54,704 nt of DNA. Origin: a virus. Its lineage: Duplodnaviria > Caudoviricetes. Made by a program: the position numbers and the translations under genes. Shown here in pieces: positions 10,176-39,925 of this stretch (position 1 is its first letter; each line of letters opens with the position of its first letter). Under the pieces are notes generated by a model. It made no database searches. It was not told where the DNA came from and saw nothing but the letters and a program-made list of their open reading frames with translations. The DNA is taken from positions 1 through 54,704 of the IMG/VR virus record IMGVR_UViG_3300030105_002351; one strand, 5' to 3'.

Positions 10176-12644
10176 TTAACTATCTTCAAGCAAATCTTTA
10201 GCCAAGTCAACTCCTTTTAAAAAGTCATCTGTCGCTTTTTGATTATCTAACTGGTCTGCTTTTAATAATTCACTAGCAGCTTTAGAACCTATTTGCGCTC
10301 CAGCTATTTGTGTTTGAGATTTAATTCTTTCTCTTTCTATTGCATCTCTGTTAGCAGCTTTAGCAGCATCAAGTTGTAAACGCTTCTCACCTTCTTCTGC
10401 TCTACGCAATGCTTCTTGTTCTTTAATAGCTACTTCTTTTTCTTTAGCTTGTATTAGTGGGTCTTTTTGCATTTCTTGTACACGAAGTTTCTCTGCTCTT
10501 TGTTGAGAAGTACCTAGAACTCTTTGTGCTGCTTCTGCAACCAAGCTAGAAATTCGTTTTTCCATATCAGCAGGTAGCGGTTCACCAAGAGGCGGTAACT
10601 CAACACCAAGTTCTTTTTCAATGTCTTCTCTGTATTTCATTGTTAGATGTTCATTTACATAAGCAGATGCTGCTGCAAGAATACCTGCTGCGTTTGGACT
10701 TTTTTCTACTGTTTGCATTATTTCTTGGTTTTGCTGTACTGAAGCAATCACTTCAATGTGAGCATCGTGATCTTGATTAATAAATGCTTTAACAGGTTTG
10801 CCATTAATAAGATTTTGAACGGCTGATACTGGATCAACTGGTTTAATGTCGTTTTCGTCAGGAACTATTTCATCTACATCATTAATGCCTAACACTCCCA
10901 GCATTTGTCTATGTAGCTCTGGTAAGTTATACATATTAGGTGCTGTTTGTGACAATTGCATAGCAGCCTGATATTGCATAATTCTTTGAGCCATAGTTGC
11001 TGCATTAGGATCAGATACAGGCAGTACATCTATTTTTTTATCAAAGTCTTCTGCTTTAATAAATTCTTCTTCGTCTGTTTCATAAGGATAGGCTGGCTCT
11101 GTAAAGTCTCTAACAATGCCAACTAAAATATCAAATTCTTTTTTCATTGCTGCATGAAGCCTAGCTTGTACGGCACTCATTACTTTTTGATTTCTTTCCA
11201 TTAAAGCAAGAGTTGTACCTACAGGTGCTTGGCTATTCATATCAGATATTTTCATATCCGAAATGCTTGCAAAGCGTCTGCCTTCTTCTACAATATTTTG
11301 AAGCAACTGATACAAAGTTGCAGATGGTTCTTTGTAGGGTAAGAAAGCAATGTTGTCTCTTATAGCTCCACCTGGTACATCAACATCTCTAAATTCACCA
11401 GGCATAATAGGTGTATCATCACCTTTAATTCTAAGTCCTCTGGCTTTTAGTCCACCAGGTAAGTTAGATAAAGTGCCTGCATCTACAAGTTGTCTGAGGA
11501 TTGATGTTGCTGATTTAGCTAATCCACCTACCATATGTATTAAACCAAACCCATAAAACCCTAGACCTGGTAAGTATTGATAGTGAACGAAGTGCATTCT
11601 TCGTAATTTTTTAGGATCATCTTCAAAGTAGTTTCTACGAACACTAAGAATTTTGCCACTGGGAAAATCTATTGTTACTACATAAGGTATAGCAACCCCT
11701 GTTTCTTCTCCAGATTCATCGGTTTCTTCATAACCTTTTAGGTCTAAATCTACCTGCATTTCTAAAATAGTATGCGTGTTGTCATAATTATAAGTAGATG
11801 ATTCACCAGTAATTTCATCATACTTTTTGTCTATATCGTTGTAACTTCTTGAGCTATCAGGTAATTCTATGTCTTTATAGAATCCATTGACTTGCATTTT
11901 CCTAATAGAGTTAGAAGACTTACGCATAACATGGGTAGCTCTCTCACAAGTTTCTAGGTCACTTGCCCCATAATTAATAACAACATCTTCTGCTGGTATA
12001 AAGATAGAGCTAGGTCTATCTAAACTTGGATCAAAATATACTTTGCGAAACGCAGAACCTGCTAATGGTAAAGAAAATAACATTTTTTCAGTTTCTGTAC
12101 GATACTCAGACATTTCATGCGTGAGTAAATAGTTTAAGTAGTCTTCTACTCTTTGTGCTTGTTTTTGTTTGTCATCAGTCATTTTACCTACAATCTTTGT
12201 TCTAACTGGACCCTGTGCTGGAAACATTTCAGTAATAGATTGAGATTGAAAGCGTATGACTGCTTCACTAAGCATTGGATGAAATACACCACAAGCACCA
12301 GACCAAGGTGTAGTTTTTTCTTCTTGCTTTAACCCTAGCTGATCAAGCCCTTTAATGTAAGTTTCTTCCCAATCAGATCGTGATTCTTTATCGCCTTTAT
12401 ATGCGCTAATTAATTCATTGCCTAGCTCATTAAGTTTTTGATCATCCATAAATTCAGCTAGGTTTGAGTCAAAATCTTCATCACCTGCTTCTTTAGAATT
12501 AGGATCAAAATCAATAATCATCCCACCATCTTCTGTTTCTATTGAAACTGATTCTGGGTTTTCGATAGCAATGCTTATTGCTTCTGGAGATTCTTGCTCT
12601 ACTGTTCCTTCAATCGGAGTAGCTGGTTGTCTTTCGATTGCCAT
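10176..12644 (-). CDS. Portal protein
   Basis: 822 aa after terminase; HPMLSEA...FQ, LPLAGSAF.KVY.D, FYGFGLIH, RQLVDAGTLSNLP motifs. Confidence 0.9.
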   Translation of the reverse strand: MAIERQPATPIEGTVEQESPEAISIAIENPESVSIETEDGGMIIDFDPNSKEAGDEDFDSNLAEFMDDQKLNELGNELISAYKGDKESRSDWEETYIKGLDQLGLKQEEKTTPWSGACGVFHPMLSEAVIRFQSQSITEMFPAQGPVRTKIVGKMTDDKQKQAQRVEDYLNYLLTHEMSEYRTETEKMLFSLPLAGSAFRKVYFDPSLDRPSSIFIPAEDVVINYGASDLETCERATHVMRKSSNSIRKMQVNGFYKDIELPDSSRSYNDIDKKYDEITGESSTYNYDNTHTILEMQVDLDLKGYEETDESGEETGVAIPYVVTIDFPSGKILSVRRNYFEDDPKKLRRMHFVHYQYLPGLGFYGFGLIHMVGGLAKSATSILRQLVDAGTLSNLPGGLKARGLRIKGDDTPIMPGEFRDVDVPGGAIRDNIAFLPYKEPSATLYQLLQNIVEEGRRFASISDMKISDMNSQAPVGTTLALMERNQKVMSAVQARLHAAMKKEFDILVGIVRDFTEPAYPYETDEEEFIKAEDFDKKIDVLPVSDPNAATMAQRIMQYQAAMQLSQTAPNMYNLPELHRQMLGVLGINDVDEIVPDENDIKPVDPVSAVQNLINGKPVKAFINQDHDAHIEVIASVQQNQEIMQTVEKSPNAAGILAAASAYVNEHLTMKYREDIEKELGVELPPLGEPLPADMEKRISSLVAEAAQRVLGTSQQRAEKLRVQEMQKDPLIQAKEKEVAIKEQEALRRAEEGEKRLQLDAAKAANRDAIERERIKSQTQIAGAQIGSKAASELLKADQLDNQKATDDFLKGVDLAKDLLEDS

Positions 12645-12652
12645 GTAAAATC

Positions 12653-14149
12653 CTAATAATAATTTGCAGTTCGGTTATGTTCTAAAGGTTCATCTTCTTC
12701 ATCTGAATGCAATGGAATAAAACCACCTTGCCTAAATCTTAACAGAGCTTGCGTGGTGCTATCAACTAAATCATCATGTTCCATGTTAGGAAATCCAGCA
12801 AATTGTTCTATAACTTCTTCTGCCCATCTAGTTGAAGGAGCATATACAACACCTGACGCAAATAGGTCTGATACTGCATTTACCCTTGAAATTTTGTCAT
12901 TACCACGACTCGGTGTATATTCTTGTACTAAAATACCTATTGCCCTTAATTCAAAGATTAGAGGCATACCAGCAGCTTTTGCTTCAATGATACAAGCATC
13001 AGGACTGTATGCTTTATATTTTTCTAATGCCATCTTTTTAAGATCAGGAAACTCTAATCGTTCTTGATAAGCATCTATCAGTATAACATTAGGACACATT
13101 TGTCCTTCATCATCTTCTTTGTAAAAAACACCCCATGTAGTACAAGCAGAATAATCAGCTCTTTGATTTTTTAAAAAAGCTGTATCCCAAGATTGTATAA
13201 TAAACTCACAATTTGGTGGTTCTCTGCCTTCCCACGTTTTCCACCAATCTCTTTTGACTATTGCGCCTTCTTCGGAGGTGGGGTCTTGTTGGTATTGTGC
13301 CATCCATTTACTGTTAGGCAATTCAGCTTTCAGTGAAAGCAATTCATTTAGTTTCCAAAATTCTTCCCATAAAGGATTACCAGAAGGCATAATGGCTGGA
13401 AGTTCTATGACTTCCCACTGATCTGCACCACCACGTTTGATGCTTGCGTCTATTACTTGACCTGTTAGGTCTTTATTGTGCCATCGAGTCATTACAACAA
13501 CGATAGCTCCATTTGGCTGTAATCGCTGTCTAGGACCAGAGGTGTACCATTCATAGGTACGATTGAATACATTGATGTCTGAACTAGCCCCTTCTTGCTC
13601 TGAATGGGGGTCATCAATAATAAGAAGATCAGCACCTTTACCTGTTACCGCACCACCTACACCAATCGCAAAGTAGTCACCACCTTTGGAAGTGTTCCAA
13701 CGACCAGCAGCTTTACTGTCTGATTGTAGGCTAACGTCAGGAAATATGTTCTTGTAGTCTTGGCTATTAACAAGGTTTCTTACCTTACGACCAAAACCAA
13801 CAGCTAATTCTGCTGTGTGGGCTGTTTGTATAATTTTTTTGTTAGGATACTTGCCTAAGAACCAAGCAGGTAATAAATAAGAAGCAAACTCACTCTTAGT
13901 ATGTCTAGGTGGCATATTAATAATTAAACGCTTCAGCTCACCTTTAGCTACTCTTTCAAAAGCTTCAGCCATAATCTCATGATGTCTTCCATGAATGAAT
14001 GCTGACCAAACCTCTCCAACAAAATCCATAAAACTATCTTGACACTTTTCTCTGGACTTAGCTTTTTCTAGTTCTTGTAGCAAAACTAATATTTCTGCTT
14101 TCTGGGATTCAGATAAGTTCCCAACTTTGCTTAAAATACTCTTATCCAT
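12653..14149 (-). CDS. terL: Terminase large subunit
   Basis: INMPPRHTKS (Walker A), LIIDDPH (Walker B), MTRW, QSWDTAF and HDDLVDS nuclease motifs. Confidence 0.95.
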   Translation of the reverse strand: MDKSILSKVGNLSESQKAEILVLLQELEKAKSREKCQDSFMDFVGEVWSAFIHGRHHEIMAEAFERVAKGELKRLIINMPPRHTKSEFASYLLPAWFLGKYPNKKIIQTAHTAELAVGFGRKVRNLVNSQDYKNIFPDVSLQSDSKAAGRWNTSKGGDYFAIGVGGAVTGKGADLLIIDDPHSEQEGASSDINVFNRTYEWYTSGPRQRLQPNGAIVVVMTRWHNKDLTGQVIDASIKRGGADQWEVIELPAIMPSGNPLWEEFWKLNELLSLKAELPNSKWMAQYQQDPTSEEGAIVKRDWWKTWEGREPPNCEFIIQSWDTAFLKNQRADYSACTTWGVFYKEDDEGQMCPNVILIDAYQERLEFPDLKKMALEKYKAYSPDACIIEAKAAGMPLIFELRAIGILVQEYTPSRGNDKISRVNAVSDLFASGVVYAPSTRWAEEVIEQFAGFPNMEHDDLVDSTTQALLRFRQGGFIPLHSDEEDEPLEHNRTANYY

Positions 14150-14201
14150 TTACTGTCCTAATAAAAAGGGATTTATGAATTCAGTAATATGAAAAACAAA
14201 C

Positions 14202-14331
14202 CTATACCTGGTACATACTTACTAGGTATATATACCTACTAGGTAAACAAAAAAAAATAAAAACTTAATAAGTAAACATAGGTAGGCACTTACTGGGTAT
14301 ATACCTAATAGAAAGTATGTACTAGGTATAG
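14202..14331. repeat. Long imperfect inverted repeat with nested palindromes
   Basis: 14202-14220 is the reverse complement of 14313-14331 with one mismatch; TAGGTATATATACCTA at 14223-14238 is a perfect palindrome. Confidence 0.8.
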
Positions 14332-14648
14332 AATCATACATGATGATAACATAATGCACCCCCTTCACAGCAAAAGCAACTGGTAAATTTGAAAAAAAAT
14401 AGGGTGGGGGGGCATAAAACATATTACCACTAAGGAAAAAACCAAAACAAACAAACAAAGCTAGCATAATGCTATATAAATAGGGGGGGTCTGTAAAAAG
14501 TAAGTGATATTACGAGCAGATTACTATGTATATATGATAGTCAAGTACTCGTTGCAAAAAAAGGGGGGTCGGGGTGGGCTTTTTATACCGAAAATCTGAG
14601 AAACTACCCGATACCCTATAAAACATATTCCTGAGAGCCAATACAGTC

Positions 14649-15149
14649 CTATTGATTGTCGGCTAATAGTAGCTGAGATAGACGAGCCTCGATGTCCTGC
14701 TGTATATCGCTCGATGTTCTGCTATCTGATCGCTGTTCTATAACCTCGGTGAAAATGCCTGCACTTTTACCCAGCAAACCCAGAGCCGATATCCTTGCGC
14801 TATCTGATTCAGCAGTGGTCGCTTCAAGCTTTAACTGTTTAAGCACGAAGTCCTTAACTGACTGCTCTCTTATGAGTTCCTGACGTGCTGTATCTGCCCT
14901 TTTACGCTCAATTCCTGCCTCTATCCTTAGTGAACACTTAGGGTTCGCTAATAGCTTACAGGCTTCGACCTCCACCCATTGCGGAACCTTACCCTTGCTA
15001 TTGAGTGATACGTCATAGATTTCAGCGTATGCCTGCTTGTTCGACTCATACTTATTCTGAATGATTGCCTGACAAAATGCCTCCTGCTTTGCTGTCAATT
15101 TATCATTGCTGACCAGCTTCAATTTACCTTTACCTTTTTTCTTATCCAT
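14649..15149 (-). CDS. Putative terminase small subunit
   Basis: LTAKQEAFC...AY...Y...A.KLLANPK HTH-like N-terminus, R.SAL.LLGK; upstream of terL; start placed at ATG 15149. Confidence 0.7.
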   Translation of the reverse strand: MDKKKGKGKLKLVSNDKLTAKQEAFCQAIIQNKYESNKQAYAEIYDVSLNSKGKVPQWVEVEACKLLANPKCSLRIEAGIERKRADTARQELIREQSVKDFVLKQLKLEATTAESDSARISALGLLGKSAGIFTEVIEQRSDSRTSSDIQQDIEARLSQLLLADNQ

Positions 15150-15240
15150 CGCTGATTCCAATTTATTATTTACTAGTAAAATATATTTCATGACCGCGTA
15201 ATTACTCACTTAATTATGGACTAATTGATCCTGATTTTTA

Positions 15241-15310
15241 ATGACTGCAATCAGCTATCAGGTATAATGTTTACTAAAATGTTTACATAGTGATTTTTAT
15301 CAAGTAAAGT
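15241..15310 (+). promoter_or_regulatory. Tandem sigma70-like promoters of the early operon
   Basis: ATGACT-N16-TATAAT (15241-15268) and TTTACA-N17-TAAAGT (15282-15310). Confidence 0.5.
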
Positions 15311-15334: not shown

Positions 15335-15350
15335 CGACCTCGGAGGTCAA
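15335..15350 (+). promoter_or_regulatory. SD-occluding hairpin motif, copy 1
   Basis: CGACCT-CGG-AGGTCAA, 4 nt before ATG 15355. Confidence 0.75.
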
Positions 15351-15354
15351 TATT

Positions 15355-15813
15355 ATGAGTAACTATTACGAAGTAACTGCAACACTGGATGACTATGACG
15401 AAGTGCTATTCGGTAGCTATATATTGGCTGAAGCGAAGTCTGAATTGTATGTGATTAAACCTAGTGCAAAGCATGATGGATATAAGAATATCCGCATAGA
15501 AAGTCGAGATTGTCCTGATGCACCTGAATATGTTCGGGTACCCTTGCAATCAGTAAAATTAGGTGGCGAGTTTAAGCTGAAGCCTGACGCTGAGAATGTA
15601 TACACTAAAGATTATTATAATCGATATGCTACTGATCAATATGGCGATTTACGACCTAGCTATACCTGTACAAGAATATGGGATTCTAACCACGAATTGT
15701 ATCTACTGCCTAAACGGAAAGTGTATGTTTTAACATCACAATGTAAGAACAATCTAATTGGCGGAACAGGAAATTATGAATATCAGAATGCCTTATTTAA
15801 TGTAAAAACATAA
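15355..15813 (+). CDS. Hypothetical early protein
   Basis: 152 aa with GGAGG RBS. Confidence 0.75.
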   Translation: MSNYYEVTATLDDYDEVLFGSYILAEAKSELYVIKPSAKHDGYKNIRIESRDCPDAPEYVRVPLQSVKLGGEFKLKPDAENVYTKDYYNRYATDQYGDLRPSYTCTRIWDSNHELYLLPKRKVYVLTSQCKNNLIGGTGNYEYQNALFNVKT

Positions 15814-15817
15814 ATTC

Positions 15818-15873
15818 TCACTCTGACGATCTGGATTAGTGATCTAGTGAAACCGACTTAGGTCGGTAAGTGA
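15818..15873 (+). ncRNA. Hammerhead ribozyme, type I (HH1)
   Basis: Stem I TCACT/AGTGA; core CTGACGA; stem II CTGGATT/GATCTAG; GAAA; stem III CCGAC/GTCGG; predicted cleavage after GUA at 15868. Confidence 0.9.
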
Positions 15874-15897
15874 AAACTAAAACAATGAGGTTATATT

Positions 15898-16143
15898 ATG
15901 AAATTAGCAACGAAGGAAAAAACTAGGATTGATACTTTTACAAGTGAATTATTCAGAAATTATACAGGCGTAAGTGATCAATGCAGTTTTGAGGAATTAA
16001 CTGGTTTAGCAATGGATTTCATTATTACGATACATAACGATTTTGAAGGTTTAAGTATAGATTATGATGCCATTGAATATGCTCATAATTATTTAGGGCA
16101 GGAAGGTTTAACGCAGGGTGACTTGCCAAACGACCTTAATTAA
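15898..16143 (+). CDS. Hypothetical early protein flanked by two hammerheads
   Basis: 81 aa with GAGG RBS. Confidence 0.75.
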   Translation: MKLATKEKTRIDTFTSELFRNYTGVSDQCSFEELTGLAMDFIITIHNDFEGLSIDYDAIEYAHNYLGQEGLTQGDLPNDLN

Positions 16144-16145
16144 AT

Positions 16146-16202
16146 TCACTCTGACGATCTGGGTTGGTGACCTAGTGAAACCCTCGCTAAGAGGGTAAGT
16201 GA
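16146..16202 (+). ncRNA. Hammerhead ribozyme, type I (HH2)
   Basis: Stem I TCACT/AGTGA; CTGACGA; stem II CTGGGTT/GACCTAG; GAAA; stem III CCCTC/GAGGG; predicted cleavage after GUA at 16197; compensatory changes relative to HH1. Confidence 0.92.
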
Positions 16203-16218
16203 TAACTTAAATATAAAA

Positions 16219-16234
16219 CGACCTTGGAGGTCAA
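16219..16234 (+). promoter_or_regulatory. SD-occluding hairpin motif, copy 2
   Basis: CGACCT-TGG-AGGTCAA, just before ATG 16237. Confidence 0.75.
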
Positions 16235-16236
16235 AA

Positions 16237-17295
16237 ATGAATACATCACCAAAAAAAGCAACGAAGATATTGGATAGCTGTTACAAGTCCAAAACTACCG
16301 CATTCTTAATTGGCGGTACAGGAATCGGCAAGTCTGAGATTGTCAAAACATTCGCAAAGAATAAGGCGAAGGAATTGGGCTTGAAGTTTACGCAGGACTG
16401 CATTGCACCGAATGATAGTCAATTCGGATATATAGATTTCAGGCTATCTCTGATGGAATCTATCGACCTTGGCGGACTGCCTATTGTGAACGATGACGGA
16501 ACCCAGAGCCGAGCATTTTTACCGAATCTGCCGACTTCAGGACAAGGTATTCTATTCTTGGACGAATTCGCTCAAGCGAATATGTCAGTAATGGCGATAG
16601 CAGGGCAATTGCTTCATGAAAAAAGAATCGGTGAGTACATTATGCCTGAAGGATGGACTGTCATTTGCGCAGGAAATCGCGCCTCCGATAGAGCAGGATC
16701 AATCGCTATTCCATCCCATGCCATCGGGCGAGTAGTAATGATTAATGTCGATGTGTCAACGCAGGACTGGCTCGACCATGCTCAATCAATTGGAGTGCAT
16801 GAGAACGTCCTAGGGTTCATAGGATTTCAGCAACAATATCTGAACAATTTTGATCCTAAAGTAAAAGACGCTCAAGCAAGCCCTCGATCATGGGTAAGAC
16901 TGAGCGATTTATTAAATACTGATCCTGTACCTGAGATCATTCAGGACTTATCCGCAGGATGTATCGGAGAGCAGGCGACCATTGAATTCATGAATTTTAT
17001 GTCATTGAAAAACGATGTACCTGATTTAAGGGAGATTGTCGCAGGTAAGGACGTAGCAATACCCGATCAGGGAGGCATAATGTATGCCACCATATGCGCT
17101 CTAATATCAGCTATCAAGCAAGCAGGCGATTCGACTGACGAATGGTTCGACAATGCGATGGCATATATCAATCGGTTTCCTTCGCCAGAATATGGAATCT
17201 TTTTTGTTAAGACGCTATCGAGTGTTGTACCTGAGATCGTCAACACGAAAACATATGGCGATTTCAAAGTAGCGAATCAGGACTTAGAATTTTAA
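16237..17295 (+). CDS. AAA+ ATPase (MoxR/dynein-related family)
   Basis: GGTGIGKS Walker A, DLGGLP, ILFLDEF Walker B, AGNR..D, SPRSW sensor 2. Confidence 0.88.
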   Translation: MNTSPKKATKILDSCYKSKTTAFLIGGTGIGKSEIVKTFAKNKAKELGLKFTQDCIAPNDSQFGYIDFRLSLMESIDLGGLPIVNDDGTQSRAFLPNLPTSGQGILFLDEFAQANMSVMAIAGQLLHEKRIGEYIMPEGWTVICAGNRASDRAGSIAIPSHAIGRVVMINVDVSTQDWLDHAQSIGVHENVLGFIGFQQQYLNNFDPKVKDAQASPRSWVRLSDLLNTDPVPEIIQDLSAGCIGEQATIEFMNFMSLKNDVPDLREIVAGKDVAIPDQGGIMYATICALISAIKQAGDSTDEWFDNAMAYINRFPSPEYGIFFVKTLSSVVPEIVNTKTYGDFKVANQDLEF

Positions 17296-17350
17296 TTGAT
17301 AAGCGAGGCGGATATATTTTATATACCAGTAAAATATATTTTTCCTCGCA

Positions 17351-17400
17351 GGGTTCTGCAAGTGATTACTTGCACTGATGAAGCTTCAAGCAGAAAACCC
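17351..17400 (+). ncRNA. Hammerhead ribozyme, type III (HH3)
   Basis: Stem III GGGTT/AACCC; predicted cleavage after UUC at 17356; stem I TGCAAGT/ACTTGCA; core CTGATGA; short stem II GCT/AGC; GAAA. Confidence 0.85.
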
Positions 17401-17414
17401 ATCAGAAATTATTA

Positions 17415-17430
17415 TGACCTAGGAGGTCAA
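17415..17430 (+). promoter_or_regulatory. SD-occluding hairpin motif, copy 3
   Basis: TGACCT-AGG-AGGTCAA, 3 nt before ATG 17434. Confidence 0.75.
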
Positions 17431-17433
17431 AAA

Positions 17434-18396
17434 ATGAATAGTAACTCAAACGCACTTTGCGAAAATGCAACATTGGTCAGGCTGACAATGAAGCATCCTA
17501 GCGGAATTAAATGCGACAAAAAAGCGCGATCTGAATGCGCTGAAGCAAACTCGATTTATAATGAAAAACTTGTCAGCGTATCTAAGCATATATTCGGCTT
17601 TGATATTAACAAGGAATTCAGGCGAATCGAGAATGGCATTCGTAATGATTTTTATTATGCGATGACTATGCCATGGGATGACGCGACAAACGATGGCGAT
17701 AAGCAAGCGTCTGGATGGAGGCTTTGCCCGAATAAGAATCTGGATAAACTTCAAATTGAAATCAACATGGCAGAAATTGCATTCAATAAAGAACGCGACC
17801 ATGCAGTCAAAGAATTCGATGCGAGGATTGCTAGTGCAAATGTTGAATTGGGTAGCTTGTTTAATATCAGCGACTACCCAACAAGAGATGAATTTGAAGC
17901 GAAATTCATTTTTGATTTTCAATTGCAAATGGTTCCATCTTATAACCACGATATAAGAATCAATTGTTCTGATGACTTTAAAAAGAAAATCGAGGATCAG
18001 GCGATAGCAAAACAAAATGCGAATATCAAAAATTCTTATAAGCAAGTAGTAGAAGGATTGATTGATAGCGTGTCGCATATTGCTGATAAAGTCGGAGAGT
18101 ATGATCCGAAAAATAAGCAAGGCGGATTTTTTAATAAATCAAGCTTCGATAATTTGAGAAAAACTATCTCAAATATTCCTGCAATCAATTCCGATATTCT
18201 TGGCGATGATCCTGCAATCACGAAGGCGCATCAATCACTTGTCAAAGTAATGTCGGGCATTACTAATGTCGAAGGATTACGCGAGGACAATCCAACGTCT
18301 ACCCAAAACCGCGAAGATTTATCCAAGGATTTAAAAGAATCTATCAGCGATCTAAAAGGCGGATTCATGGAAAATCTATATGGGGGCAAAAAATGA
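17434..18396 (+). CDS. Helical protein, possibly DUF3150-like
   Basis: Start reassigned to ATG 17434 after GGAGG; T.PW.D....G.RL.PN and LG.LFN..DYP motifs; between the AAA and VWA genes. Confidence 0.7.
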   Translation: MNSNSNALCENATLVRLTMKHPSGIKCDKKARSECAEANSIYNEKLVSVSKHIFGFDINKEFRRIENGIRNDFYYAMTMPWDDATNDGDKQASGWRLCPNKNLDKLQIEINMAEIAFNKERDHAVKEFDARIASANVELGSLFNISDYPTRDEFEAKFIFDFQLQMVPSYNHDIRINCSDDFKKKIEDQAIAKQNANIKNSYKQVVEGLIDSVSHIADKVGEYDPKNKQGGFFNKSSFDNLRKTISNIPAINSDILGDDPAITKAHQSLVKVMSGITNVEGLREDNPTSTQNREDLSKDLKESISDLKGGFMENLYGGKK

Positions 18397-19649
18397 ATAG
18401 CTTAGACAAATTGACGAAGGCGCGTTCAAAGCTGATGCGTAATAACTTAGGCATAGCGACCATGCTATTGACCTTGGATTTAATCGAATGCGATGCAAGC
18501 AAAACTGAAACGATGGCGACTGACGGCAGGCAGATATTTTTTCATCCTGATTTTGTCGAAGGTCATAGCATCCCAGAGTTGCAAGCCGTATTGATCCATG
18601 AAGCGATGCACGTCAGATTCAGCCATCCATTACGCAAAGGCAATCGGCATCATATACTCTGGAATTATGCGACTGATTACGTTATCAATAATCATTTGAG
18701 ATATGACCTAGGGATGCAATTGCCAGAAGGCGGATTATGGGATCGAAAATACATGAATATGACTGCTGAGAAGGTTTATCAGCAATTGGCTAACAGTCCT
18801 GACGACCTGAAGAAAACGGCAGAAAATGTGTCGAATGAATCAAGCGATGAATCAGGCGATACGTCAGACGATACGTCATGGGATGATTTACCTATGCCAT
18901 CTGGCGAAGTATTGGAACCTGTTGACGATGTCGGTAAGCCATTAGACGCGACTCAATTAGAGGAATTGCAAACTGCAATCAATCGAGCCGTATCTATGTC
19001 AGATAAGCTTGAAACATTCGGATCGAATCAGCAGTCAGGTCGAGGCGATGTGAAAACTGATTCTGATGAAATTGCGCCATGGCATGAGATTCTGCAAGAG
19101 CATATGGAATCGATCAGATCAAACGATGTTAAGAATTTCAAGCGATACAATAAGCAACACGCGCATCGCGGAATACATATGCCGACTAGAGATTTTGTAC
19201 CTGAAGGCGGAACCCTTGCTGTAGCAATTGACTCTAGTTGCTCGGTGAGTCAAGGCGAATTGGATATATATGCTAGCAATATTCAGAGCATTGCTGAATC
19301 GCTGAATCTATCAAAAATCATGATTTGTTATTGCGACACGATTGTTCATAAAAACAATCAGGGCGAATGGTGGGATGAACACGAGTTGATGGAAGGCGAT
19401 GACCTGAAGCTTGTCATAAGAGGCGGAGGCGGAACCGAATTTGATCCGCCATTCAATCTGTTAAATGACTATACCGAAAATCTTAGCGAGATAATGGCAT
19501 TTGTTTATTTTACTGATGGATATGCAAACGTCAGCCCATCAGTGGAACCCGACTTACCTGTGATATGGTGCTTGACTGCTAAATCGAGTTATAGCGATGG
19601 ACTGCCGTTCGGTGAGAAGGTTTATATCGATACAAGCAAGTTGATTTAA
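18393..19649 (+). CDS. Zincin metallopeptidase plus VWA-like domain protein (DUF2201-type)
   Basis: TMATDG, HEAMH (HExxH), WN.A.D..IN; MIDAS-like DSSCS, GGGGT.F, YFTDG. Confidence 0.85.
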   Translation: MNSLDKLTKARSKLMRNNLGIATMLLTLDLIECDASKTETMATDGRQIFFHPDFVEGHSIPELQAVLIHEAMHVRFSHPLRKGNRHHILWNYATDYVINNHLRYDLGMQLPEGGLWDRKYMNMTAEKVYQQLANSPDDLKKTAENVSNESSDESGDTSDDTSWDDLPMPSGEVLEPVDDVGKPLDATQLEELQTAINRAVSMSDKLETFGSNQQSGRGDVKTDSDEIAPWHEILQEHMESIRSNDVKNFKRYNKQHAHRGIHMPTRDFVPEGGTLAVAIDSSCSVSQGELDIYASNIQSIAESLNLSKIMICYCDTIVHKNNQGEWWDEHELMEGDDLKLVIRGGGGTEFDPPFNLLNDYTENLSEIMAFVYFTDGYANVSPSVEPDLPVIWCLTAKSSYSDGLPFGEKVYIDTSKLI

Positions 19650-20236: not shown

Positions 20237-20264
20237 AGAGGGTGCTTCGGCACTCTTTTTTTTT
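20237..20264 (+). terminator. Rho-independent terminator
   Basis: GGGTGC-TTCG-GCACTC followed by a T run. Confidence 0.88.
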
Positions 20265-21749: not shown

Positions 21750-21841
21750 CAACAGAGAAAATTAAATTTCTTTGTTGACCTCCTAAGTCGAGAACCGAGG
21801 GGTGGGTTTTTTTCAATTTTAGCCTGCCCCTCTTTTCTTTT
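21750..21841 (+). ncRNA. Putative trans-acting anti-Shine-Dalgarno small RNA
   Basis: 5' hairpin 21750-21777; segment TTGACCTCCTAAGTCG matches the reverse complement of the three early RBS motifs at 14/16; terminator hairpin 21797-21832 plus U-tract; no start codon in the unit. Confidence 0.65.
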
Positions 21842-38314: not shown

Positions 38315-39925
38315 TTATTTAATTATTTTTCCGAATATTGCAGCTTTATCTGATTCAGCATCTGTTGAAGAAAAACCTTGAGCTTTTGCTAATTCATCTC
38401 TATAAGCCTCAATTGTTGGTAATAATGCTGCTGCTGTTATTACAGATTGTTCGGAACCTTCTTCTTTAAGTAGTTTATAATAATCCACCATTTGAGCGAA
38501 ATCTTTTCTTAAAGCTGTAAGAGGCAATGCCTCAGTTTCAACACCTAATTTCTCTGTTTGCGCTATATAATAATCTTTTTGTGCTTCAGATAAACCTGAT
38601 GTACTTTCTTTTTCTTCTATACTTTCAGCTAAACCACCTAACCCTGTAAAGAATTCTTTCATATTACTAGAGCCACCAACAAGAGCAGCTAGTTTTGTTA
38701 AGTTTAAGCCTTGTTCTTTGCTTATACCTAGAAGACCTTTTTCTTCAGTGTCTGCCGTAGGTAAATTGCCAGAATCATCTATAATAATAGCAGAATCATC
38801 AAAAGGTTTAGGAATAACAGTAGGAGATTCAGGCGATTCATTAAATTCTTGTAAAGCTGCACCAAAAGCAAGACCTCCAGCACCTACACCTAACATTCTA
38901 TTTGGTGAAAATACTTTTTCTTCAACATTTTTTCTTATTCTTTGACTTCTTACACCACTACCTTCTTTAATTGACGCTTTTATCGCTTGACCTTGAGGTG
39001 ATCCTGCTGGATATTCTTTTACTGGTTTCGATCCTTTTCCTGATGATTTAAAAAATGTTTTCTTTTTTGTTATTTTTTTCTTTGTAAGAAAATCAAAAAT
39101 TTCTTTACCTGCACTTTTTAAACCTTTTCCTACTTTTGGTCCATATTTTACTGCTCCTTGTAAAATTTTTGGACCTACTACTCTGCTAGCAGCTATACCT
39201 GCTCCTCCTATTCCAGCGTCTGTTAAAAGCGCACTTTTATCTAAATTTCCTTCATCGTCTGTATATCTAGCAACTATGTCTTCTTTTAAATTTTGTAGTC
39301 CACCTTTTTGTCCTATCTCATAAGATGTTTTTGGATCAATTCCAAAAATTTTGTCAGCTAAAAACATTCTACTTATATCAGTTATACTTGGATTTTTGTC
39401 AGTATTTACAAAATCTGTAATATTTCCAAAAATACCACGTTCTTCTGTAAGTCCACCTTCTTGATACCCAACTAAGCCACCGCCAGCAGCCATTTGCATT
39501 GTTTCTGGCATAACAATATCTTGTCGTAAACTACTTGCAGGATTTACATTTTCATCTACCATGCTGCCAACTTCACTTGGAATGCCAGCCATTTGATTAT
39601 TCATCACTGAATTTTGTAAATTCATTATTATTTCTTCTGGACTAGCGACTGAATCTTCTGGACTCATCATCATATTTTGTGGGTTTATATTTGCAAGTTG
39701 CTTGTAATCATCTATAAGATTTTCTGATACTGATTTTTTTGGTTGGTTCATCGCTGCTAATTGAGCAATATATGATTTTTTGTCTGCTGTTCTTCTGATT
39801 ACTTCATCAATTGCCATCATTTTTGGATAACGTCTATATGCCTCATCAGGGTTTCCATTAGCAATTTTTTCTAACTGATCAAAAGGAACATTTTCTAAAT
39901 TTTCGGCTTGTGTAACTAAATTCAT
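38315..39925 (-). CDS. Putative internal virion (ejection) protein
   Basis: 536 aa; MAAGGGLVGYQEGG motif; upstream of the giant protein. Confidence 0.65.
   Translation of the reverse strand: MNLVTQAENLENVPFDQLEKIANGNPDEAYRRYPKMMAIDEVIRRTADKKSYIAQLAAMNQPKKSVSENLIDDYKQLANINPQNMMMSPEDSVASPEEIIMNLQNSVMNNQMAGIPSEVGSMVDENVNPASSLRQDIVMPETMQMAAGGGLVGYQEGGLTEERGIFGNITDFVNTDKNPSITDISRMFLADKIFGIDPKTSYEIGQKGGLQNLKEDIVARYTDDEGNLDKSALLTDAGIGGAGIAASRVVGPKILQGAVKYGPKVGKGLKSAGKEIFDFLTKKKITKKKTFFKSSGKGSKPVKEYPAGSPQGQAIKASIKEGSGVRSQRIRKNVEEKVFSPNRMLGVGAGGLAFGAALQEFNESPESPTVIPKPFDDSAIIIDDSGNLPTADTEEKGLLGISKEQGLNLTKLAALVGGSSNMKEFFTGLGGLAESIEEKESTSGLSEAQKDYYIAQTEKLGVETEALPLTALRKDFAQMVDYYKLLKEEGSEQSVITAAALLPTIEAYRDELAKAQGFSSTDAESDKAAIFGKIIK

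What the first reader, a model, noticed from the sequence alone, without database searches (positions are those of the whole stretch)
15818..16202. Twin type I hammerhead ribozymes bracketing a single 81-aa gene
Both have the CUGACGA / GAAA / GUA core and begin 3-5 nt after a stop codon. Stem III covaries (CCGAC/GTCGG vs CCCTC/GAGGG) and so does stem II (A-T vs G-C), which points to selection on RNA structure. Both have U-U in place of the usual G10.1-C11.1 pair. Double cleavage would release a 329-nt RNA (15869-16197) carrying RBS and ORF, with 5'-OH and 2',3'-cyclic phosphate ends. Such ends are ligatable in principle, so a circular mRNA is possible (inference).
Basis: partly seen in the sequence, partly recalled or inferred. 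Interest (0 to 1): 0.88.

Follow-up and report, generated by a model that had tools for sequence, protein, structure and literature searches.

The report
Twin hammerhead ribozymes flanking phage gene
Two genuine self-cutting hammerhead RNA motifs sit on either side of one small gene in the early operon of an uncultured marine phage and most likely chop a long message into single-gene pieces, a layout known in phages since 2011.

Summary
Two type I hammerhead motifs lie at 15818-15873 and 16146-16202 (+ strand), 4 and 2 nt after stop codons. Both have a complete core (CUGACGA, GAAA, A15.1-U16.1, A17) and a U10.1-U11.1 mismatch. My descriptor finds 2 on the + strand and 0 on the - strand; 300 dinucleotide shuffles gave none with 2.

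No Rfam hammerhead model matches them. A covariance model built only from relatives ranks them 1st and 3rd in the window (20.2 and 12.7 bits).

Phages sharing the downstream MoxR-like ATPase (50-56% identity) carry 143 such hammerheads in 77 of 80 loci, all on the gene strand, 1 to 5 per locus, with strong covariation.

The layout, the U-U variant and the circular-RNA idea are all in Perreault et al. 2011; their search for circles found none. This scan has noted twin phage hammerheads in at least 25 other genomes.

Most likely function: self-cleavage that splits the operon transcript into single-gene mRNAs. A circular mRNA is untested: no RNA run holds this DNA.

Small new points: U-U goes with A17, successive hammerheads share stem I, and loop II may pair with the 3' tail.

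The parts
15241..15268 (+). Best sigma-70-like promoter match ahead of the + strand operon (weak evidence)
   Evidence: 10 of 12 hexamer matches. The scan as a whole is not above its shuffles (26 found, mean 21.3), so this is only a consistent placement.
15355..15813 (+). 152-aa ORF of unknown function, first gene of the operon; its stop lies 4 nt before HH-A
   Evidence: ORF; no PHROG or Pfam family. Homologues in L124 and L229.
15818..15873 (+). HH-A, type I hammerhead, U10.1-U11.1, predicted cut after A17 at 15868
   Evidence: sequence; fold; relatives-only model R1: 20.2 bits, E 0.0079, best hit in the window; shuffles; subfamily pairs.
15876..15880 (+). ACUAA tail, candidate pseudoknot partner of loop II UUAGU (15836-15840)
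   Evidence: The loop A/G co-varies with the tail U/C; loop A opposite tail C was never seen. Suggestive only.
15898..16143 (+). 81-aa ORF (cargo) with GAGG ribosome-binding site at 15887-15890
   Evidence: No Pfam or PHROG family. 7 homologue clusters, all unnamed. AlphaFold2 three-helix model, pLDDT 75.6. No fold match at E<=0.001.
16146..16202 (+). HH-B, type I hammerhead, U10.1-U11.1, predicted cut after A17 at 16197
   Evidence: (R1: 12.7 bits, E 0.61, third hit in the window; full-length alignment in which every modelled pair is a standard pair).
16205..16209 (+). ACUUA tail, weaker candidate partner of loop II UUGGU (16164-16168): 4 of 5 pairs, one of them G-U
16237..17295 (+). MoxR-like AAA ATPase, the conserved gene downstream of the hammerheads
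   Evidence: phrog_1297, E 3.4e-72. (AAA_5, below the Pfam cut-off). (cyanophage 'MoxR-like ATPase', 36% identity).
17351..17400 (+). Third hammerhead candidate, type III, A10.1-A11.1, C17, just after the ATPase gene
Evidence: own type III descriptor; relatives carry one at the same place. (RF00008: 13.2 bits against a gathering score of 48.5, E 1.9).
20237..20258 (+). First intrinsic-terminator-like site on the + strand after the operon (weak evidence)
   Evidence: No terminator-like site on the + strand between 14900 and 20236.

Best explanation
The window is a 54.7-kb uncultured marine tailed phage. HH-A and HH-B are genuine type I hammerhead self-cleaving ribozymes of the natural U10.1-U11.1 / A17 variant. 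They are encoded in the two intergenic gaps around an 81-aa gene in a + strand operon: 152-aa gene, HH-A, 81-aa gene, HH-B, MoxR-like ATPase, a type III hammerhead candidate, then the VWA/metallopeptidase gene.

As the long transcript is made, each motif folds into the three-way junction and cuts itself after A17 (15868 and 16197). That splits the message into single-gene RNAs.

Each upstream piece ends in the compact stem II / stem III fold with a 2',3'-cyclic phosphate. Each downstream piece starts with a 5'-OH, 29 or 39 nt ahead of its start codon. The pieces can therefore differ in stability and translation.

Shown here: the motifs, their non-chance nature, covariation, and conservation of hammerhead punctuation at this operon position across related phages.

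Inferred from established hammerhead chemistry and from published assays of other phage hammerheads: cleavage itself, the end chemistry, and the effect on mRNA fate.
For: (1) Full core and fold in both copies.

(2) The motifs are not chance: 2 sites on the coding strand, 0 on the other, and 0 of 300 shuffles with two sites.

(3) Relatives were found through the ATPase protein, not through the RNA (80 loci, 427,786 bases). My descriptor finds 90 type I motifs in them, all on the gene strand.

(4) I aligned 40 of the 50 unique motifs, those of 72 nt or less. 95.6% of cells are paired, against 73.4% in shuffles. 11 of 17 pairs change on both sides. The covariation score is 0.602 against 0.199, reached by 0 of 500 shuffles. 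Sliding the partner by 1-3 columns drops pairing to 23-39%.

(5) Model R1, built only from those relatives, ranks HH-A first and HH-B third in the whole window with filters off. Both alignments are full-length and every modelled pair is a standard pair.

(6) R1 finds 143 hits at E<=0.01 in 77 of 80 loci, all 143 on the + strand. Per locus: one hit in 32 loci, two in 31, three in 10, four in 1, five in 3.

(7) The sites are intergenic. Only 1 of 145 lies inside an ORF of 40 aa or more. Stem I starts 0 nt after a stop codon in 76 of 145 and within -2 to +5 nt in 99 of 145.

(8) The window's own subfamily (UCACU/AGUGA stem I, U-U, A17) recurs on other marine contigs with other flanking genes. Twins are 889 nt apart in L224 and 761 nt apart in L229. 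There are 17 unique versions in the metagenome scan. Stem III varies by compensatory changes.

(9) Literature: hammerheads flanking single genes or short gene blocks in prophages cleave in vitro and, for Agrobacterium, in vivo (Perreault 2011, section 6 read). The U10.1-U11.1 mismatch occurs naturally and supports more cleavage than any other mispair (passage read). A 2019 review states the polycistronic-processing idea (PMC6765202, passages read).

(10) No terminator-like site lies between the genes on the + strand.
Against: No Rfam hammerhead family matches HH-A or HH-B at any threshold tried.

The relatives-only model gives only modest scores (20.2 and 12.7 bits). HH-B alone is not significant (E 0.61).

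G10.1-C11.1, the most conserved pair of the consensus apart from A15.1-U16.1, is replaced by U-U. That may slow cleavage.

Stem I has only 5 pairs, and the tertiary contact that fast natural hammerheads need is only tentatively identified.

The sequences for alignment A3 were picked by a descriptor that demands stems. The percentage paired is therefore inflated by selection. The strand bias, the position and the model search are the fairer controls.

No RNA data exist for this phage, so cleavage, co-transcription and any effect on expression are untested.

In relatives, 12 of 143 hits have core changes (A9 to U, U4 to C), so some copies in this lineage may be decaying.
Confidence: 0.8

Rival explanations
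1. Circular (or trans-ligated) mRNA. After double cleavage, the 5' AGUGA end of the 329-nt RNA docks on the UCACU strand of HH-B at its own 3' end. This rebuilds a complete hammerhead. The nick is then sealed, either by the reverse hammerhead reaction or by a host RtcB-type ligase, giving a circular translatable RNA.
For: The two hammerheads have identical stem I strands, so the docking is possible on paper. In relatives, the 3' strand of an upstream hammerhead fits the 5' strand of the next one at 5 of 5 positions in 37 of 41 successive pairs. Random pairing gives 55% (binomial p 1.5e-6, not corrected for relatedness). The ends produced are the kind that RtcB joins (recalled knowledge, no call).
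Against: No RNA evidence of any kind exists (no RNA holder listed). Perreault 2011 report that they could not detect spliced or circular products from such arrangements. A 5-bp stem I releases the 3' product readily. Matched stem I within a genome is equally explained by local duplication or gene conversion of the motif. 4 of 41 pairs do not match. In the folds of the isolated 5' products, the UCACU strand of HH-A re-pairs internally and that of HH-B stays unpaired.
Confidence: 0.05
2. Inactive or barely active hammerhead-derived repeats. Their present role would be structural (3' end hairpins that protect upstream mRNA) or genomic (short conserved boundaries at which gene cassettes are exchanged between phages).
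For: U-U replaces the most conserved pair. No Rfam hit.

Cassette boundaries coincide with hammerhead edges. A DNA contig in run X20 follows the window to 16146, the first base of HH-B, then diverges. L126 carries the 81-aa gene (84% identity) with the same ribosome-binding site but no hammerhead on either side.

L124 has one hammerhead that mixes features of HH-A and HH-B, and a different small gene before it.

The cargo between hammerheads falls into 23 unrelated clusters.
Against: Every catalytic-core position is kept in both copies and in 131 of 143 relatives' hits. A mere hairpin or recombination site would not need that. The U-U variant is reported active. All sites lie on the transcribed strand, whereas DNA-level recombination sites need no strand. 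Cassette exchange may be a side effect of repeated sequence and does not exclude cleavage.
Confidence: 0.08
3. Conditional cleavage coupled to translation. Stem I starts at or next to the stop codon, so a terminating ribosome covers stem I and the core. Cutting would then depend on how heavily the upstream gene is translated, making the hammerhead a sensor, not a constitutive cutter.
For: The stop codon abuts stem I (gap 0) in 76 of 145 sites and lies within -2 to +5 nt in 99 of 145. In the window the gaps are 4 and 2 nt. Perreault 2011 suggest in their discussion that slower phage variants may be regulated (passage read).
Against: This is pure inference from spacing. Compact phage genomes place many elements right after stop codons. 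UAA may simply be part of the conserved 5' flank of the motif. No data on kinetics or ribosome occupancy exist.
Confidence: 0.07

Closest known systems
Clustered hammerhead ribozymes flanking single genes or short gene blocks in prophages (Clostridium scindens, Azorhizobium caulinodans, Agrobacterium tumefaciens ardA locus; Perreault et al. 2011, PMC3088659)
   Same: Several hammerheads lie on the gene strand in intergenic gaps of phage DNA. They bracket genes whose identity is not constant. The proposed role is the same: processing long phage transcripts into single-gene mRNAs. Circular or spliced products were already considered.
   Different: Here the host is an uncultured marine virus contig, not a prophage of a cultured bacterium. 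Both copies are type I with U-U / A17. The lineage carries denser arrays: up to 5 type I hammerheads upstream of one ATPase gene, plus type III copies. None of these copies has been assayed.
Natural U10.1-U11.1 hammerhead core variant (Perreault et al. 2011, section 'Core nucleotide variation')
   Same: Stem II opens with a U-U mismatch in place of G10.1-C11.1. The paper states that it occurs in nature and supports more cleavage than other mispairs.
   Different: In this phage lineage it is common: 33 of 143 type I hits and 38 of 86 type III hits. It is tied to A17. I did not find that association in print: one search for 'U10.1' returned only this paper, and its figures and supplements were not seen.
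Viroid-like RNAs and retrozymes: tandem hammerheads that excise an RNA later ligated into a circle (de la Pena et al., PMC4918200 seen as a search listing only, PMC7761336 passages read)
   Same: Two direct-repeat hammerheads with matching stem I release a unit-length RNA with 5'-OH and 2',3'-cyclic phosphate ends that can in principle be joined.
   Different: Those are non-coding or retroelement RNAs of eukaryotes and their pathogens, and circles have been demonstrated. Here the excised RNA is a phage mRNA from a dsDNA genome, and no circle has been seen.
Rfam hammerhead families (RF00163 type I, RF00008 type III, RF03152 RAGATH-1 hammerhead)
   Same: Same catalytic core and three-helix junction.
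   Different: No match to HH-A or HH-B at any threshold. Canonical G-C relatives reach only 25-39 bits against gathering scores of 48.5 and 56.3. These curated models do not capture this marine-phage group at their thresholds.

Membership tests
Hammerhead ribozyme, type I topology | Catalytic core C3 U4 G5 A6 N7 G8 A9 / G12 A13 A14 / A15.1-U16.1 / H17 (consensus as listed in the methods of Perreault 2011) | tested here: met
   Both copies read CUGACGA ... GAAA ... UA in the right order and spacing.
Hammerhead ribozyme, type I topology | Three helices around the core; stems II and III closed by loops, stem I open | tested here: met
   The MFE fold of each 67-nt slice is exactly this junction. 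Stem I has 5 bp, stem II 5-7 bp after the U-U, stem III 6 bp.
Hammerhead ribozyme, type I topology | Watson-Crick pair at 10.1-11.1 (usually G-C) | tested here: not met
   U-U in both copies. Perreault 2011 first rejected such hits in their screen and later accepted tested ones. They describe U10.1-U11.1 as a natural variant that supports cleavage. The feature is therefore typical but not obligatory.
Hammerhead ribozyme, type I topology | Helices supported by covariation among homologues | tested here: met
   Relatives: 11 of 17 pairs change on both sides, 95.6% of cells paired, 0 of 500 shuffles reach the score. Own subfamily of 8 copies: 4 of 21 pairs change on both sides, 96.3% paired. Caveat: the members were picked by a descriptor that requires stems.
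Hammerhead ribozyme, type I topology | Match to a covariance model of the family | tested here: inconclusive
   Rfam models: no match. Own model from 40 phage relatives: HH-A 20.2 bits (E 0.0079), HH-B 12.7 bits (E 0.61), ranks 1 and 3 of the window.
Hammerhead ribozyme, type I topology | [quoted passage not shown] | tested here: inconclusive
   Candidate 5-bp pairing of loop II (UUAGU / UUGGU) with the tail 2 nt after stem I (ACUAA / ACCAA). One covarying position. 3 of 8 aligned copies have a U-U at one pair. The forbidden combination of loop A with tail C is absent among the further copies.
Hammerhead ribozyme, type I topology | Site-specific self-cleavage giving 5'-OH and 2',3'-cyclic phosphate | not testable with these tools
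   No RNA run holds the stretch. A bench assay is needed.
Clustered phage hammerheads that punctuate operons (Perreault 2011) | Two or more hammerheads on the gene strand, in intergenic gaps, flanking genes of phage origin | tested here: met
   Phage context: terminase, portal. Both motifs lie between ORFs on the + strand. Relatives have 1-5 per locus, with 143 of 143 hits on the gene strand.
Ribozyme-processed circular RNA (viroid-like / retrozyme-like) | Detected head-to-tail junction or circular molecule | not testable with these tools
   No RNA data. Only the precondition is met: matching stem I strands.

The most novel reading that the evidence does not exclude
The matched stem I of successive hammerheads (identical in the window; 37 of 41 pairs in relatives) is selected. 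It lets the 5' end of an excised cistron dock into the downstream hammerhead at its own 3' end and be sealed. This phage lineage would then make small circular, repeatedly translatable mRNAs, or would re-join cistrons in new orders. The U10.1-U11.1 / A17 pairing would be a tuned slow-cleaving, ligation-prone core. That would be the first circular protein-coding mRNA made by ribozymes in a dsDNA phage.
Probability: 0.05. Interest if true: 0.85.

Novelty: new member of a known kind. Interest (0 to 1): 0.33.

Why it matters
In itself it is one more case of hammerhead punctuation of a phage operon. The biological purpose of that pattern has stayed open since 2011 (2019 review).

What this case adds is a rich natural comparison set from marine phages: 143 type I and 86 type III hammerheads around one conserved ATPase gene. 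It offers three testable regularities.

1. U10.1-U11.1 cores almost always cleave after A17.
2. Successive hammerheads share stem I.
3. Stem I usually starts right at a stop codon.

These give specialists concrete mutants to make. They also show that the curated Rfam models miss this whole group at their thresholds.

Tried and rejected
Rfam scans. The whole window at gathering score gave no match at all. At E<=1 only two unrelated weak matches appeared. 15700-16300 at E<=10 gave only a weak CRISPR-DR60 match on the other strand. The 80-nt HH-A slice gave only sroH and rli54 fragments.

My filter kept only L026, the same phage, and one doubtful site in L111. The rest I treat as chance.

Single-protein locus searches reached only near-identical contigs.

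The R1 hit at 38723-38810 (- strand, 15.1 bits) lies in coding sequence and reads UUGAUGA. I rejected it as chance.

Cargo function. There is no Pfam or PHROG family for the 81-aa or the 152-aa protein. The 81-aa protein has 7 unnamed homologue clusters. Its three-helix AlphaFold2 model (pLDDT 75.6) has no Foldseek match at E<=0.001 in the PDB or BFVD libraries. Its function remains unknown.

Expression. No RNA holder is listed for the stretch.

Laying four DNA runs gave no joints that skip the cassette and no indels. Parts without cover in those runs are not interpreted.

Cultured relatives. The best phage match to the ATPase is 36.5% identity (cyanophage S-TIM54, 'MoxR-like ATPase'). No close cultured phage or host was identified, and I did not search genome contigs.

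The internal re-pairing of UCACU with an AGUGA inside HH-A's 5' product is absent from the fold of HH-B's product, whose UCACU strand stays unpaired there, and I saw no such complementarity when reading the relatives' sequences (not tested by a call). I dropped it as an explanation.

Supplements and figures of Perreault 2011 (alignments, Figures 3 and 5, S6, S7) were not available. They may already contain these marine sequences or the U-U / A17 link.
Full report
WHAT IS THERE. The window is a whole IMG/VR virus record of 54,704 bases, estimated 93% complete. It is a tailed phage. Small terminase, large terminase and portal genes lie on the - strand at 10176-15209. A divergent + strand operon starts at 15355.

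In that operon the order is as follows:
- a 152-aa ORF (15355-15813);
- HH-A (15818-15873);
- an 81-aa ORF (15898-16143);
- HH-B (16146-16202);
- a MoxR-like AAA ATPase (16237-17295; phrog_1297, E 3.4e-72);
- a 366-aa ORF;
- a DUF2201 metallopeptidase/VWA-like protein (18393-19649).

The best promoter-like match on the + strand is at 15241-15268. The first terminator-like site on that strand is at 20237-20258, and none lies between the genes. These are consensus matches only.

THE OBSERVATION. Both motifs have the complete hammerhead core in the right order: UCACU, CUGACGA, stem II, GAAA, stem III, UA, AGUGA. The minimum-free-energy fold of each 67-nt slice is exactly the three-way junction.

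The two copies are about 80% identical over the aligned 126 columns. They differ in the stems by compensatory changes: two pairs in stem III and one in stem II. Stem II opens with U opposite U.

My descriptor finds 2 sites on the + strand of the window and 0 on the - strand. In 300 dinucleotide-preserving shuffles only one had a single site and none had two.

The gaps to the preceding stop codons are 4 and 2 nt.

THE NEGATIVE RESULT. No Rfam hammerhead model matches either copy at gathering score, at E<=1 over the window, at E<=10 over 601 nt or over an 80-nt slice.

This reflects the models, not the RNA. In 9 relatives' loci even hammerheads with a canonical G-C core reach only 25-39 bits with RF00008 (gathering score 48.5) and about 29 bits with RF03152 (gathering score 56.3).

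RELATIVES FOUND THROUGH THE PROTEIN. The ATPase has 298 homologues at E<=0.001. An alignment of 37 of them retrieved 80 viral loci, 427,786 bases. 78 of them have 49-56% identity to the window's ATPase and 2 are near-identical.

My descriptor finds 90 type I hammerheads there, every one on the ATPase strand and upstream of or next to that gene. Of 50 unique motifs in L129-L206, I aligned with MAFFT the 40 that are 72 nt or shorter and dropped the 10 longer ones.

On that alignment:
- 95.6% of cells are paired, against 73.4% in shuffles;
- 11 of 17 pairs change on both sides;
- the covariation score is 0.602 against 0.199, with 0 of 500 shuffles as high;
- sliding the 3' partner by 1-3 columns drops pairing to 23-39%.

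The percentage paired is inflated because the descriptor demanded stems. Strand, position and the model search below are the fairer controls.

THE RELATIVES-ONLY MODEL. Model R1 was built from those 40 sequences and contains no window sequence. I ran it over the whole window with filters off.

It ranks HH-A first (15815-15876, 20.2 bits, E 0.0079) and HH-B third (16143-16205, 12.7 bits, E 0.61). Both alignments are full-length and every modelled pair is a standard pair. The hit in between (38723-38810, - strand) lies in coding sequence with UUGAUGA, and I reject it.

Scores are low because the relatives keep a different stem I (ACCAA/UUGGU or GCCUA/UAGGU) and a different loop II (UGAGAU).

Over the 80 loci R1 gives 143 hits at E<=0.01, all 143 on the + strand, in 77 of 80 loci. 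One hit occurs in 32 loci, two in 31, three in 10, four in 1 and five in 3. The three loci without a hit are the two near-identical to the window and L173.

Spacing between successive hits runs from 253 to 1188 nt. Only 1 of 145 sites (143 plus the window's two) lies inside an ORF of 40 aa or more.

THE WINDOW'S OWN SUBFAMILY. A pattern fixing stem I but leaving stems II and III free found 24 viral stretches, most of which do not form the stems. Those that do, apart from the window's own phage fragment (L026), are:
- L219;
- L224, two copies 889 nt apart with three small ORFs between;
- L229, two copies 761 nt apart around a homologue of the 152-aa gene plus an 83-aa gene;
- L227, which is the same contig as L124;
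- L226, which forms the full fold with a G-C pair at 10.1/11.1 and an ACACU/AGUGU stem I;
- L209 and L213, where the stems are shorter.

A stricter pattern in metagenomes gave 23 stretches. 22 of them fold correctly, holding 24 copies and 17 unique versions. That pattern fixed U-U and A17, so it says nothing about those two features.

Upstream flanks differ from contig to contig while the hammerhead is nearly invariant. Stem III changes by compensatory substitutions (CCGAC, CCCUC, CCCC and longer loops).

On 8 aligned copies, 96.3% of cells pair and 4 of 21 pairs change on both sides.

CARGO IS VARIABLE. Among 67 intervals between successive hammerheads, 47 hold one ORF of 30 aa or more, 5 hold two and 15 hold none by my crude caller. 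The 57 proteins fall into 23 clusters at blastp E<=1e-5, and the window's 81-aa protein is a singleton among them. In three loci the ATPase itself is bracketed.

The 81-aa gene occurs at 84% identity in L126 with the same ribosome-binding site but with no hammerhead on either side.

In run X20 a DNA contig follows the window to 16146, the first base of HH-B, and then diverges into sequence like that of L126.

L124, whose ATPase is 99% identical, has a different small ORF at that place. It has one hammerhead that combines HH-B's flanks and stem II with HH-A's stem III.

Gene and ribozymes are therefore separate modules. This matches the statement in Perreault 2011 that the flanked genes are not constant.

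The protein itself stays unexplained: a three-helix model with pLDDT 75.6, and no family or fold match.

HOW IT MOST LIKELY WORKS. Each motif folds as the operon is transcribed and cuts after A17. The upstream piece keeps the stem II / stem III fold and a 2',3'-cyclic phosphate at its 3' end. The downstream piece starts with a 5'-OH, 29 nt (81-aa gene) or 39 nt (ATPase) before the start codon.

With the type III candidate after the ATPase (17351-17400), the operon would be cut into at least four pieces. The pieces could then differ in stability and translation.

Cleavage, the end chemistry and the effect on expression are inferred from established hammerhead chemistry and from assays of other phage hammerheads (Perreault 2011, section 6 read; 2019 review, passages read). 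No RNA run holds this DNA.

COMPARISON WITH WHAT IS KNOWN. Perreault et al. 2011 (PMC3088659) describe multiple hammerheads flanking individual genes or short gene blocks in prophages, with variable genes. They demonstrated cleavage in vitro for three arrangements and in vivo for one. They propose processing of long phage transcripts. They mention spliced or circular products and say they could not detect either.

They also report the U10.1-U11.1 mismatch as a surprising natural variant, already known to support more cleavage than other mispairs.

This scan has logged twin phage hammerheads in at least 25 other genomes. The eight follow-ups listed there all name clustered or tandem hammerheads in phage, prophage or bacterial operons (Perreault 2011) as the closest known kind. 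These are AI notes, not independent evidence.

I therefore file the finding as a new member of a known kind.

WHAT MAY BE NEW, IN A SMALL WAY.

(a) U-U goes with A17.
- Type I hits: U-U with A17 in 33 of 33 (17 of 17 unique rows). G-C is with C17 in 95, A17 in 9 and G in 5 of 109.
- Type III hits in L129-L206 (86 hits, 51 unique): U-U with A17 in 36 of 38 (27 of 28 unique). G-C is with A17 in 15 and C17 in 20. Fisher p is 0.0047 on unique rows.
- Three stem III sequences occur with both stem II classes. In two of them position 17 switches between C and A together with the class; in the third both have A.
- The window's copies fit: U-U with A17.
- Relatedness is not corrected for. One literature search for 'U10.1' found only the 2011 paper.

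(b) Successive hammerheads share stem I. The fit is 5 of 5 in 37 of 41 pairs, against 55% for random pairing.

(c) Stem I begins directly after a stop codon in 76 of 145 sites.

(d) A possible loop II to 3' tail pseudoknot in the window's subfamily. The loop A/G tracks the tail U/C, and the mismatching combination was never seen.

(e) Point (b) is the only observation that speaks for the circular-RNA idea. It is equally explained by duplication or gene conversion within a genome.

VERDICT. The circular mRNA is unsupported but not excluded, at about 5%. The arrangement is known; interest is modest.

Noticed in passing
window 17351-17400 (+): Type III hammerhead candidate right after the ATPase stop: GGGUUC / 7-bp stem I / CUGAUGA / 3-bp stem II opening with A-A / GAAAACCC. 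Rfam RF00008 gives only 13.2 bits. Relatives carry a type III hammerhead at the same position (about 50-150 nt past the ATPase gene): 86 type III hits in 57 of 78 loci, all on the + strand.
   Followed up: partly
L129-L206: U10.1-U11.1 cores almost always have A17: 33 of 33 type I hits and 36 of 38 type III hits. G-C cores are mostly C17 in type I (95 of 109) and mixed in type III (15 A, 20 C). Not corrected for relatedness.
   Followed up: partly
L129-L206: Successive type I hammerheads in one phage share stem I: cross-fit is 5 of 5 in 37 of 41 pairs, against 55% for random pairing. Stems II and III differ freely.
   Followed up: partly
window 15336-15348, 16220-16232, 17416-17428 (+); 21777-21789 (-): The hairpin GACCU-NGG-AGGUC, which holds the Shine-Dalgarno sequence, sits before three operon genes. 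Five matches with at most 1 mismatch were found (one is the reverse reading of the palindrome), against 0.02 expected. A one-mismatch copy on the other strand is at 21777.
   Followed up: partly
L182, L183, L184, L195, L180, L201-L203, L190: 12 of 143 type I hits have core changes: A9 to U (CUGACGU, CUGAUGU) or U4 to C (CCGAUGA). They may be weakened or decaying copies.
   Followed up: no
L144:2332-2423, L199:1567-1658 and others: 23 of 143 type I hits carry an extra U between A9 and G10.1 (CUGANGA-U-G...), together with long stem III inserts.
   Followed up: no
L126:2990-3243; run X20 contig at window 16072-16146: The 81-aa gene with its ribosome-binding site occurs in another phage context with no hammerheads. 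The DNA homology ends exactly at the first base of HH-B. Gene and ribozymes therefore move as separate modules.
   Followed up: partly
L124:2910-2975 (= L227:3871-3930): A single hammerhead upstream of a 99%-identical ATPase combines HH-B's flanks and stem II with HH-A's stem III. A different 57-aa ORF precedes it. This looks like recombination between hammerhead copies.
   Followed up: partly
L129-L206 and window: Stem I starts 0 nt after a stop codon in 76 of 145 hammerheads (UAA|ACCAA). A terminating ribosome would cover stem I and the core.
   Followed up: no
window 17303-17349 (+): A long AT-rich hairpin closed by GCGAGG/CCUCGC lies between the ATPase stop and the type III hammerhead. The 120-nt region folds with z -5.37.
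   Followed up: no
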